From a virus (Duplodnaviria; Heunggongvirae; Uroviricota; Caudoviricetes), in IMG/VR virus record IMGVR_UViG_2737471837_000012, positions 1 to 16,498 of that record: a stretch of 16,498 nt of DNA; one strand, written 5' to 3'. The notes under the pieces are model-generated. The model saw only the letters and a program-made list of their open reading frames with translations. It was not told the origin of the DNA and did not search any database. The first letter of the stretch is position 1; every line of letters starts with the position of its first letter. Positions 4,605 to 5,211 of the stretch are shown here, piece by piece. The position numbers and the translations under genes are program-made.

Positions 4605-4970
4605 TTATTGCGCTAATTCTTTTTCGGCAGCAGCTTTTGCATATTCACATGCAAAATTCAGAATTTCGCTGCCAAGTACTTTTGTTTCATGATTACTGGA
4701 CATATGTAATACCTGTGTTGCATGCAATAAATGATAAACATTTACCGCAAATGAATCAGGCTCCAGACAAATGCCTTCATAATCATCTTGTTGTGAGGTT
4801 GTTTCTGTCATTGCTCCTGAAGTGCATGCGAGCCTGTTTTTGACAATTCTCTTTCCTCTAATCACTATATCGGCTACATCTATTGCCTTTACAACCTCCG
4901 GGAGAAATTCCTGGTTTGCATAATCAAAGTTATCAACATGGAGAACAGTTATGTTTTCGAACTTTTTCAT
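4605..4970 (-). CDS. Hypothetical protein (about 121 aa)
   Basis: Track ORF is 4605-4988. The ATG at 4970 (MKKFENITVLHVDNF...) has GAGGA upstream, whereas the 4988 start has no Shine-Dalgarno. Confidence 0.55.
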   Translation of the reverse strand: MKKFENITVLHVDNFDYANQEFLPEVVKAIDVADIVIRGKRIVKNRLACTSGAMTETTSQQDDYEGICLEPDSFAVNVYHLLHATQVLHMSSNHETKVLGSEILNFACEYAKAAAEKELAQ

Positions 4971-5211
4971 GGCTTCCTCAGCTGACATGTATGTTCTGTT
5001 ATATAGTGAGTCTCAGAAGTGTTTTCATATTGAGACTGTTTCCGCAATGGTTGAGAGAAATGTCCGTATGTATCTTGATGGCAGAAGTGGCGATTATGTC
5101 ACTCTGGCTTTCGGCTCCTCAGTTGAAGAACTTCGTGAAATTCGCTCTCAGCTTGTAGAAAAGCGCGGCGATGTTATTGCCCCATGGTATCTGATGAAGC
5201 CCGGGCAATAG
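4951..5211 (+). CDS. Uncertain plus-strand ORF (86 aa) embedded between convergent minus-strand genes
   Basis: GGAG Shine-Dalgarno 7 nt upstream of the ATG at 4951. It overlaps both flanking minus-strand genes (20 nt and 38 nt), so it may be spurious or an antisense-encoded small protein. Confidence 0.3.
   Translation: MFSNFFMASSADMYVLLYSESQKCFHIETVSAMVERNVRMYLDGRSGDYVTLAFGSSVEELREIRSQLVEKRGDVIAPWYLMKPGQ

What the first reader, a model, noticed from the sequence alone, without database searches (positions are those of the whole stretch)
4951..5211. Plus-strand ORF with a good Shine-Dalgarno nested between convergent minus-strand genes
An 86-aa ORF overlaps the start region of one minus-strand gene and the 3' end of the tandem-HTH gene. 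The same DNA on the minus strand carries a plausible sigma70 promoter for the 121-aa gene (ATGAAA, 17-bp spacer, TATATA). So it may be a real antisense-encoded protein or only a promoter region.
Basis: seen in the sequence. Interest (0 to 1): 0.28.

Follow-up and report, generated by a model that had tools for sequence, protein, structure and literature searches.

The report
Unannotated small prophage gene, real
The 86-codon plus-strand ORF is a genuine, conserved small protein gene of a lambda-like E. coli prophage that standard annotation misses; it sits where phage lambda keeps its exclusion gene sieB, but what it does is unknown.

Summary
The ORF at 4951-5211 (+) exists as described, with a GGAGAA Shine-Dalgarno 5 nt upstream. 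It overlaps the start of a 121-aa minus-strand gene (L08-like) by 20 nt and the 3' end of the tandem-HTH gene by 38 nt. It is a real gene.

- **Conservation:** the frame is intact in 82 of 87 related loci.
- **Selection:** in the part overlapping no other gene, variable columns fall 17/8/35 by codon position. dN/dS is 0.06-0.28 between E. coli, Salmonella and Citrobacter lineages.
- **Family:** it matches PHROG 6104 (unknown function, E=1.5e-44). A profile search finds 421 clusters of 60-100 aa relatives. There is no Pfam or NCBIfam hit.
- **Fold:** AlphaFold gives a confident beta-beta-alpha-beta-alpha core (pLDDT 93-97) with no significant structural match.
- **Annotation:** it was unannotated in every RefSeq E. 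coli genome and GenBank phage record inspected.

The gene lies antisense to the early-left (pL-type) operon and convergent with its first gene. That is the position of lambda sieB. A 42%-identical relative sits convergent with an N gene in another lambdoid phage.

Most likely it is a dispensable accessory gene encoding an acidic soluble protein. Expression timing and function are only inferred.

The parts
4951..5211 (+). ORF86: 86-codon protein-coding gene (stop included), member of PHROG 6104
   Evidence: Searches show the ORF. It is intact in 82/87 loci. dN/dS is 0.06-0.28. phrog_6104 match at E=1.5e-44.
4940..4945 (+). Shine-Dalgarno GGAGAA, 5 nt upstream of ATG 4951
   Evidence: Read. GGAG is kept in the E. 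coli, Salmonella and Citrobacter alleles, and the 54%-identity lineage has GGTGGA. These bases also encode the conserved TVLH of the opposite-strand gene, so the conservation is not independent evidence.
4987..5172 (+). Folded core of the protein (aa 13-74; beta-beta-alpha-beta-alpha). Apart from its first two bases (4987-4988), which fall only in the disfavoured 127-aa reading of the L08-like gene, this stretch overlaps no other gene.
   Evidence: AlphaFold pLDDT is 93-97 over residues 11-70. Variable columns by codon position are 17/8/35. Family-wide conserved residues are S19, Q22, H26, N37, D48 and Y49.
4605..4970 (-). L08-like 121-aa gene (PHROG 5451), divergent from ORF86, with start codons overlapping by 20 nt
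   Evidence: The full 121-aa frame is conserved in the Salmonella, Citrobacter and other lineages. It is annotated as L08 in phiP27, ASU11 and PhiR49_2.
5174..5872 (-). Tandem-HTH (XRE-type, 'L10'/'CII-like') gene, first gene of the early-left operon and convergent with ORF86 (38-nt 3' overlap). In this window a TAA at 5780 interrupts it, leaving the 182-aa ORF 5174..5722.
   Evidence: Two HTH_3 stretches. phrog_4739 and phrog_4836. The nonsense difference from NZ_CP027544 and ASU11 is shown.
5000..5028 (-). Weak, and coincident with invariant codons of ORF86.
   Evidence: Read. Not called by the scan. Their conservation is explained by the L17-Y18-S19 and F25-H26 codons.
5904..5932 (-). Best promoter-like site of the region (TTGCCA, 17 nt, TATTAT; 10/12), between the cI-like gene and the HTH gene. 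Candidate pL-type early-left promoter.
   Evidence: This is an inference from position only.
6006..6752 (-). cI-like repressor (HTH_3 + Peptidase_S24), which defines the immunity region
   Evidence: Annotated as XRE/CI.
4919..4924 (+). Candidate -10 element for ORF86 (CATAAT here, TATAAT in most E. coli alleles), with no recognisable -35. Speculative.
   Evidence: Not called by the scans. It also encodes D15-Y16 of L08.

Best explanation
ORF86 (4951-5211, +) is a real protein-coding gene that is missing from standard annotation.

**The protein.** It is 9.9 kDa, acidic (pI 5.3) and soluble, with no membrane segment. It has a compact three-stranded-sheet/two-helix core (aa 13-74) and disordered tails. 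It belongs to PHROG 6104, a widespread family of 60-100 aa phage proteins of unknown function.

**The setting.** The window is a phiP27-like lambdoid prophage of E. coli. The gene lies on the strand opposite to the early-left (pL-type) operon. It is divergent from the L08-like gene and convergent with the operon's first gene, a tandem-HTH regulator. That is the position phage lambda uses for sieB.

**Shown:**
- The gene is under purifying selection as a protein.
- It belongs to PHROG 6104.
- It has a confidently predicted fold.
- Its position is as described.
- It is dispensable: related prophages have it truncated, replaced or IS-disrupted.

**Inferred (about 40% likely):**
- It is an accessory gene transcribed from its own weak promoter inside the L08 coding region when the repressor keeps pL off.
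- Head-on pL transcription and the resulting complementary RNA silence it during lytic growth.

**Speculative (about 20-25%):**
- The protein works by binding a partner protein through the conserved polar patch S19/Q22/H26/E28/N37/D48/Y49. The partner could be a host or phage protein, possibly an XRE-type HTH regulator. DNA binding or catalysis seems less likely.
For: **Coding**
- The frame is intact with the same ATG in 82/87 loci, as 28 distinct nucleotide sequences.
- In the stretch overlapping no other gene, variable columns by codon position are 17/8/35.
- Pooled dN/dS is 0.17 in this frame. In four other frames it is 0.8-2.8. The phase-linked antisense frame scores 0.21 but contains 4 stops.
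- Pairwise dN/dS between E. coli, Salmonella, Citrobacter and a 54%-identity lineage is 0.06-0.28, with dS about 1-2.

**Start codon**
- M1 is kept everywhere.
- M7 is lost in L039 (T) and P0006 (I). M13 is Leu (TTA or CTG) in most alleles.
- GGAG lies upstream.

**Family**
- phrog_6104 matches at E=1.5e-44, and all 58 aligned relatives hit it.
- 421 representative clusters score E<1e-3.

**Fold**
- Mean pLDDT is 84.7, and 93-97 in the core. Two alignments give the same topology.

**Physical properties**
- pI is 5.3 and there is no hydrophobic segment.

**Position**
- cI-like, HTH, ORF86 and L08 keep the same order in the E. coli, Salmonella and Citrobacter loci.
- The 42%-identity relative P0024 lies convergent with an N antiterminator gene next to cI.
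- Lambda sieB (34482-35036, +) abuts N (35037-35438, -) in the same way.
- P22 sieB is prophage-expressed (PMC10883804).
- Genes antisense to lytic operons are typical accessory loci (PMC7067206).

**Dispensability**
- phiP27-type prophages keep only about 35 codons and carry a different plus-strand small gene in the slot.
- L085 has an IS insertion and L084 is truncated.

**Partner-binding idea**
- One relative (P0043) is fused to a C-terminal XRE HTH domain.
Against: - No sigma-70 consensus promoter or intrinsic terminator is called for ORF86, either in the window or in two relatives.
- Its base composition is not distinct from its surroundings (GC 0.44 against 0.46).
- No expression data exist here, so lysogen-specific expression is inferred from position alone.
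- The protein has nothing in common with SieB: no homology and no membrane segment.
- Distant family members mostly sit co-directionally inside early or replication gene clusters. The antisense slot is therefore not a property of the family.
- The HTH fusion is a single cluster on one contig.
Confidence: 0.62

Rival explanations
1. The ORF is not translated. The stretch is a regulatory region (a promoter for the 121-aa gene or another DNA or RNA signal) and the open frame is chance.
For: - The hexamers ATGAAA, 17 nt, TATATA are present on the minus strand.
- The window has 77 ORFs of at least 60 aa, so an 86-aa ORF is not unusual.
- The ORF is absent from the RefSeq and phage annotations inspected.
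Against: - Substitutions concentrate at third positions, and dN/dS is 0.06-0.28 across saturated synonymous distances.
- The frame is kept in 82/87 loci.
- There are 421 clusters of protein-level relatives.
- The predicted fold is confident.
- The hexamers are weak and not called by the scan, and they lie on invariant codons.
- No Rfam family matches the region.
Confidence: 0.03
2. ORF86 is an early lytic-cycle gene, or is expressed constitutively, rather than being lysogen-specific. It acts during phage development like its co-directional relatives in other phages.
For: - Distant relatives lie co-directionally inside early or replication modules. P0121 follows DnaB and P0120 follows an AAA_25 helicase. 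P0115, P0036 and P0099 lie within co-directional runs of small genes.
- No promoter or terminator signature of an autonomous unit is found.
- Base composition is not foreign.
Against: - In the window clade and the P0024 clade the gene faces the early-left operon head-on. Strong pL transcription should therefore oppose its expression.
- All genes to its left are on the minus strand, so no upstream lytic promoter can feed it.
Confidence: 0.25
3. ORF86 is a modulator of the adjacent XRE-type HTH regulator (an anti-repressor, co-repressor or stabiliser), and the two form a functional pair.
For: - ORF86 is adjacent to and convergently overlaps an HTH gene in all close relatives examined, by 38-113 nt.
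- One relative is a fusion of this domain with an XRE HTH.
Against: - The HTH partner is mosaic. Alleles of 143-222 aa have unrelated N- and C-termini, while ORF86 stays conserved.
- In the P0024 clade the convergent neighbour is N, not an HTH protein.
- Distant relatives mostly lack an HTH neighbour. The only exception is a weak HTH_17 hit two genes upstream of P0099.
- The fusion is a single case.
Confidence: 0.2
4. The main function lies in the transcript. The ORF86 mRNA acts as a cis-antisense RNA against the 3' end of the HTH mRNA and the 5' end of the L08 mRNA, like lambda OOP against cII or P22 sas against sieB. The protein is secondary.
For: - ORF86 overlaps both neighbours: 20 nt at the 5' end and 38-113 nt at the 3' end.
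- No terminator separates the convergent genes.
- OOP and sas precedents are described in PMC7067206 and PMC12197685.
Against: - Purifying selection acts on the amino-acid sequence in the non-overlapping core.
- In the 3' overlap there is no codon-position bias (7/7/9). The sequence there changes with the HTH allele, so no specific pairing element is conserved.
Confidence: 0.1
5. The protein is a degenerate GIY-YIG-like (or MbtH-like) domain with nuclease-related or adaptor activity.
For: - The beta-beta-alpha-beta-alpha order matches the GIY-YIG core.
Against: - None of the 58 members hits the Pfam GIY-YIG or MbtH models.
- By the reporter's recollection of the GIY-YIG and MbtH motifs, which was not checked with a tool, the Tyr...Tyr-x-Gly and Arg/Glu catalytic pattern is absent. 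The family's invariant residues (S19, Q22, H26) differ from it.
Confidence: 0.05

Closest known systems
PHROG 6104 (phage protein family of unknown function)
   Same: Full-length HMM match (E=1.5e-44, aa 7-85 onto profile positions 1-79 of 80). All 58 aligned relatives match the same PHROG.
   Different: The family has no assigned function, Pfam model or solved structure. The PHROG model starts at Met7, whereas the conserved start here is Met1.
Lambda / P22 sieB (superinfection exclusion B), as occupant of the same genomic slot
   Same: A gene on the strand opposite to the pL operon, convergent with and abutting the first pL gene, next to the immunity region. Lambda sieB is at 34482-35036 (+) and N at 35037-35438 (-). 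P22 sieB is expressed from the prophage (PMC10883804). A relative of ORF86 is convergent with an N gene.
   Different: There is no sequence relationship. From the reporter's own knowledge, SieB is a membrane protein of about 190 aa. ORF86 is an 86-aa acidic soluble protein. Expression from the prophage and any exclusion phenotype are untested for ORF86.
Prophage accessory ('moron') loci encoded antisense to lytic genes
   Same: Orientation opposite to the surrounding operon. Presence/absence and cassette replacement among related prophages. PMC7067206 describes this position as characteristic of accessory loci.
   Different: No recognisable own promoter or terminator, and no compositional difference. 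Both are usual hallmarks of morons.
Lambda OOP RNA / P22 sas RNA (cis-antisense control at convergent 3' ends in the immunity region)
   Same: The ORF86 transcript must overlap the 3' end of the regulator gene by 38-113 nt, as OOP overlaps the 3' end of cII (PMC7067206).
   Different: ORF86 is a protein-coding mRNA under protein-level selection. No conserved pairing element or processing site was found.

Membership tests
PHROG 6104 | Significant full-length match to the family HMM | tested here: met
   E=1.5e-44, 150.6 bits, aa 7-85 onto profile 1-79/80. 58/58 relatives also match.
Protein-coding gene (as opposed to a chance ORF) | Purifying selection on the reading frame in sequence not shared with another gene | tested here: met
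   Variable columns by codon position are 17/8/35. Pooled dN/dS is 0.17, against 0.8-2.8 in four other frames; the phase-linked antisense frame scores 0.21 but has 4 stops. Pairwise values are 0.06-0.28.
Protein-coding gene (as opposed to a chance ORF) | Evidence of transcription and translation | not testable with these tools
   No RNA-seq, Ribo-seq or proteomics data were available. No paper on this gene was found.
Moron / prophage accessory locus | Orientation opposite to the flanking operon, and variable presence among related prophages | tested here: met
   Plus strand within a minus-strand operon. Truncated and replaced by another plus-strand gene in phiP27-type prophages. IS-disrupted or truncated in L085 and L084.
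Moron / prophage accessory locus | Own promoter and terminator | tested here: inconclusive
   The consensus scans call none upstream or downstream of ORF86 or of P0024. Only partial matches exist: TTGACA, 17 nt, CACTAT at 4840-4868, and CATAAT/TATAAT at 4919-4924.
Moron / prophage accessory locus | Base composition distinct from the neighbouring phage genes | tested here: not met
   GC is 0.44 for ORF86, against 0.46 for the window and 0.44-0.47 for the neighbours.
Moron / prophage accessory locus | Expression in the lysogen while lytic genes are repressed | not testable with these tools
   Needs strand-specific transcriptomics of a lysogen.
SieB superinfection exclusion protein | Sequence homology to SieB, and membrane-protein character | tested here: not met
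   No Pfam, NCBIfam, PHROG or PADLOC hit other than phrog_6104. The maximum 19-residue hydropathy is 0.88 and pI is 5.3. Only the genomic position is shared.
GIY-YIG domain | GIY...YIG motifs with catalytic Arg/Glu; significant profile or fold match | tested here: not met
Known anti-phage defence proteins (PADLOC) | Match to a defence-system HMM | tested here: not met
   0 families for ORF86 and for the L08-like protein at E<=0.1.
Overlapping (overprinted) antisense gene | Most of the coding sequence embedded in another gene's coding sequence | tested here: not met
   In the window only 20 + 38 of the 261 nt overlap other CDSs. In other alleles the 3' overlap reaches 113 nt.

The most novel reading that the evidence does not exclude
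ORF86 and its PHROG 6104 relatives in lambdoid prophages are a new kind of occupant of the sieB slot. It would be a small acidic cytoplasmic protein made only while pL is repressed. Its expression would be hard-wired to the lysis-lysogeny state by head-on transcription from pL. It would act on a protein partner, for example an XRE-type regulator or an incoming phage's early protein, either to exclude superinfecting phages or to tune the switch.
Probability: 0.15. Interest if true: 0.55.

Novelty: new member of a known kind. Interest (0 to 1): 0.3.

Why it matters
- **Annotation.** A gene with a match in 215 of 5,426 complete E. coli genomes (about 4%) went unannotated in every RefSeq record inspected. 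In about 50 of the 215 the match covers only the first 104 nt, apparently the truncated phiP27-type remnant. The omission is probably due to the overlap with both neighbours. It shows how short genes on the "wrong" strand of prophage operons are lost.
- **Biology.** The gene occupies the same place as lambda sieB. In related prophages the slot holds alternative small plus-strand genes. It is therefore a candidate site for lysogen-expressed functions in Shiga-toxin-phage relatives.
- **Family.** PHROG 6104 is broad (421 clusters at 50% identity). It has a confidently predicted fold with no significant structural neighbour and no known function, so even a simple phenotype would annotate many proteins.

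Tried and rejected
- **Domain libraries.** Pfam, NCBIfam and PADLOC scans of ORF86 found nothing. A Pfam scan of 58 relatives found only the HTH of the one fusion protein.
- **Solved structures by sequence.** A profile search found only chance matches, such as coiled-coil designs.
- **Collection scans.**
  - The genome-contig scan with the alignment returned no confirmed locus.
  - A narrower W-S-x-x-Q-x-x-F-H-I-E pattern gave one chance match inside a gene that looks like a DNA methyltransferase.
- **Alternative start codons.** Met13 (4987) was rejected because it is Leu (TTA or CTG) in most alleles. Met7 (4969) is less likely because it is lost in two alleles and has no SD.
- **Overlapping 91-aa ORF.** The ORF 4883..5158 (+), in another frame, was rejected: dN/dS is 0.83 in that frame.
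- **Promoter and terminator scans.** They gave nothing usable for ORF86.
- **Rfam.** No RNA family lies in 4300-6000.
- **Literature.** The search for phiP27 transcription found no paper treating this gene.

Full report
**1. What is in the sequence**

The window is the integrase-to-replication part of a phiP27-like lambdoid prophage of E. coli. The stretch 4400-5800 is 99.3% identical to a prophage of strain 2013C-3264 and 98% identical to the induced phage ASU11.

The ORF at 4951-5211 (+) is present. GGAGAA lies 5 nt upstream of its ATG. It overlaps two minus-strand genes:
- the L08-like gene (121 aa from ATG 4970, PHROG 5451), by 20 nt at that gene's 5' end;
- the tandem-HTH gene (5174-5722), by 38 nt at that gene's 3' end.

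Both neighbours are on the minus strand. They are therefore not convergent with each other. The ORF is divergent from L08 and convergent with the HTH gene.

They match only 4/6 + 4/6 and lack the conserved last T of the -10. The consensus scan does not call them.

**2. It is a real gene**

I located the ORF in 87 related loci: the window, 5 annotated or assembled loci and 81 IMG/VR loci.

- *Frame conservation.* The same 261-nt frame with the same ATG is intact in 82 loci, as 28 distinct nucleotide sequences.
- *Codon-position bias.* In the central 183 nt that overlap no other gene, variable columns by codon position are 17/8/35.
- *Pooled selection.* Pooled pairwise dN/dS is 0.17 in this frame. 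Four other frames give 0.8-2.8. The phase-linked antisense frame gives 0.21 but holds four stops.
- *Independent lineages.* Between the E. coli alleles, Salmonella, Citrobacter and a 54%-identity clade, dN/dS is 0.06-0.28 with dS of about 1-2.
- *Tails.* The 3' overlap shows no codon bias (7/7/9). The C-terminal tail changes with the HTH allele. The tail (aa 75-86) therefore looks like a by-product of running into the neighbour.
- *Start codon.* Met1 is the likely start. It is kept everywhere and has the SD. Met7 is lost in two alleles. Met13 is Leu (TTA or CTG) in most.
- *Competing frame.* The overlapping 91-aa ORF 4883-5158 in another frame is not selected (dN/dS 0.83).

**3. Family and fold**

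No Pfam, NCBIfam or PADLOC model matches. PHROG 6104, of unknown function, matches at E=1.5e-44.

A profile search of 1.84 billion representative proteins gives 421 clusters at E<1e-3. Nearly all are proteins of 60-100 aa. They share the motif [YWF]-V-[LV]-x-[YW]-S-x-x-Q-x-x-F-H-[IV]-E ... N ... D-Y. S19 is invariant, and Q22 and H26 are present in more than 90%. All 58 aligned members hit phrog_6104.

AlphaFold2 gives the same beta(14-19)-beta(24-29)-alpha(30-43)-beta(49-55)-alpha(58-76) topology with two alignments. With the deeper one, mean pLDDT is 84.7 and the core scores 93-97. Both tails are disordered.

No structural neighbour is significant:
- Foldseek against PDB gives E of 1 or more.
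- Foldseek against BFVD gives E of 0.1 or more.

I treat the GIY-YIG and MbtH resemblance as noise. No profile match exists, and the family's conserved residues are not those I recall as defining those motifs.

The protein is acidic (pI 5.3) and has no hydrophobic segment.

**4. Genomic position**

In all close relatives the order is: cI-like repressor (-), an XRE-type HTH gene (-), ORF86 (+), L08 (-). ORF86 overlaps the HTH gene's 3' end by 38-113 nt.

The HTH gene is mosaic, with alleles of 143-222 aa, while ORF86 is conserved. Between the window and L013, ORF86 is 99% identical in nucleotides but L08 is much more diverged (roughly two-thirds identical by eye). A recombination junction therefore sits at the shared start region.

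The best promoter-like site of the region is TTGCCA, 17 nt, TATTAT at 5932-5904 on the minus strand. It lies between cI and the HTH gene, where a pL-type promoter is expected. ORF86 is thus antisense to the early-left operon, just after its first gene.

A 42%-identity relative (P0024) sits in another lambdoid phage, convergent with the N antiterminator gene (8-nt gap) next to cI. In phage lambda that position is occupied by sieB: 34482-35036 (+), abutting N at 35037-35438 (-). P22 sieB is one of the prophage-expressed exclusion genes (PMC10883804). Genes antisense to lytic operons are typical accessory loci (PMC7067206).

The slot is variable:
- phiP27 itself, and apparently about 50 complete E. 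coli genomes (the class whose match covers only the first 104 nt), keep only about 35 codons of ORF86.
- One such genome inspected (NZ_CP015229) carries a different 75-aa plus-strand gene in the slot. phiP27 L09 is a frameshifted copy of it.
- One locus has an IS insertion and one is truncated at codon 61.

More distant family members mostly lie co-directionally in early or replication clusters. One is fused to a C-terminal XRE HTH domain.

**5. Promoters**

Their conservation is therefore uninformative. A synonymous CAT->CAC change weakens the -35 in one lineage.

For ORF86 itself only partial matches exist, both inside the L08 coding sequence:
- TTGACA, 17 nt, CACTAT at 4840-4868;
- CATAAT at 4919-4924, which is TATAAT in most alleles, with no -35.

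Conserved L08 residues also explain the conservation of both. No terminator is predicted. Transcription signals remain unresolved.

**6. Most likely mechanism**

*Shown:* a conserved, dispensable, soluble acidic small protein with a defined fold, encoded head-on to the early-left operon in the sieB position.

*Inferred (about 40%):* it is transcribed from a weak promoter of its own when CI represses pL. It is shut off by transcriptional interference and complementary RNA when pL fires.

*Speculative (about 20-25%):* it acts by binding a protein partner through the conserved polar residues. The single HTH fusion and the constant HTH or N neighbour hint at early regulators. The mosaic nature of the neighbour argues against a specific pair.

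*Rivals:* an early lytic gene (0.25), an HTH modulator (0.2), an antisense-RNA role for the transcript (0.1), a degenerate GIY-YIG-like domain (0.05), and non-coding (0.03).

**7. Comparison, novelty and verdict**

ORF86 is a member of PHROG 6104 by the only defining test available. It is a positional, not homologous, counterpart of sieB. It meets the orientation and variability criteria of a moron, but not the composition criterion, and the promoter/terminator test is inconclusive.

The gene is unannotated in every RefSeq genome and phage record inspected. A few GenBank assemblies list it as a hypothetical protein. A match is present in 215 of 5,426 complete E. coli genomes.

The finding is a solid annotation correction and a modest lead: a new member of a known but uncharacterised family. 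Interest is 0.3.

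Noticed in passing
window 5780 (within 5174-5872, minus strand): The tandem-HTH gene is 232-237 aa in NZ_CP027544 and phage ASU11. In this window a T (A in the others) creates a TAA stop at about codon 31. Only the 182-aa ORF 5174-5722 (TTG start, or an internal ATG) remains. The first early-left gene may be inactivated or N-terminally shortened in this prophage.
   Followed up: partly
L100 1401-1628 (+) (NZ_CP015229) and L003 3678-3857 (+) (phiP27 L09): In phiP27-type prophages the 3' two-thirds of ORF86 is replaced by another plus-strand small gene (75 aa, MINEEQLEKEISALKK...). phiP27 L09 is a frameshifted version of it. The slot between L08 and the HTH gene therefore carries alternative plus-strand cargo.
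   Followed up: partly
window 4605-4970 (-): RefSeq PGAP calls the L08-like gene as only 68 aa (4605-4811) in the near-identical NZ_CP027544. The full 121-aa frame, including the N-terminal ITVLH...ADIVI...VKNR motifs, is conserved in Salmonella, Citrobacter and other lineages. The short call is probably wrong.
   Followed up: partly
window about 4950-4970 compared with L013/L012: ORF86 is 99% identical in nucleotides between the window and L013. The adjacent L08 protein is much more diverged (roughly two-thirds identical by eye). This points to a recombination junction at the overlapping start codons of the divergent pair.
   Followed up: no
window 8750-8826 (+) and 8851-8938 (+): Rfam gathering-level matches to isrK (63.6 bits) and to C4 antisense RNA (83 bits) lie next to each other. 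These are Rfam's isrK Hfq-binding sRNA and C4 antisense RNA families. They sit in a stretch that the near-identical NZ_CP027544 record annotates as ash family protein genes.
   Followed up: no
window 15943-16118 (+): Rfam match to the sRNA STnc100 (93.7 bits, full length).
   Followed up: no
L092 2771-3268 (+) (protein P0043): A 165-aa protein fuses the PHROG 6104 domain (N-terminal) to an XRE-type HTH domain (C-terminal). It lies next to an integrase and IS91-type transposase genes. This was the only HTH fusion seen. P0120 and P0124 carry tandem duplications of the domain.
   Followed up: partly
L037 2947-2964 (+), equivalent to window about 4897-4914: In most E. coli alleles a 7-bp-stem hairpin (TCCGGGAGAAGTTCCGGG) sits immediately before the TATAAT element upstream of ORF86. 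In the window it is weakened by two substitutions. Its significance is unknown.
   Followed up: no
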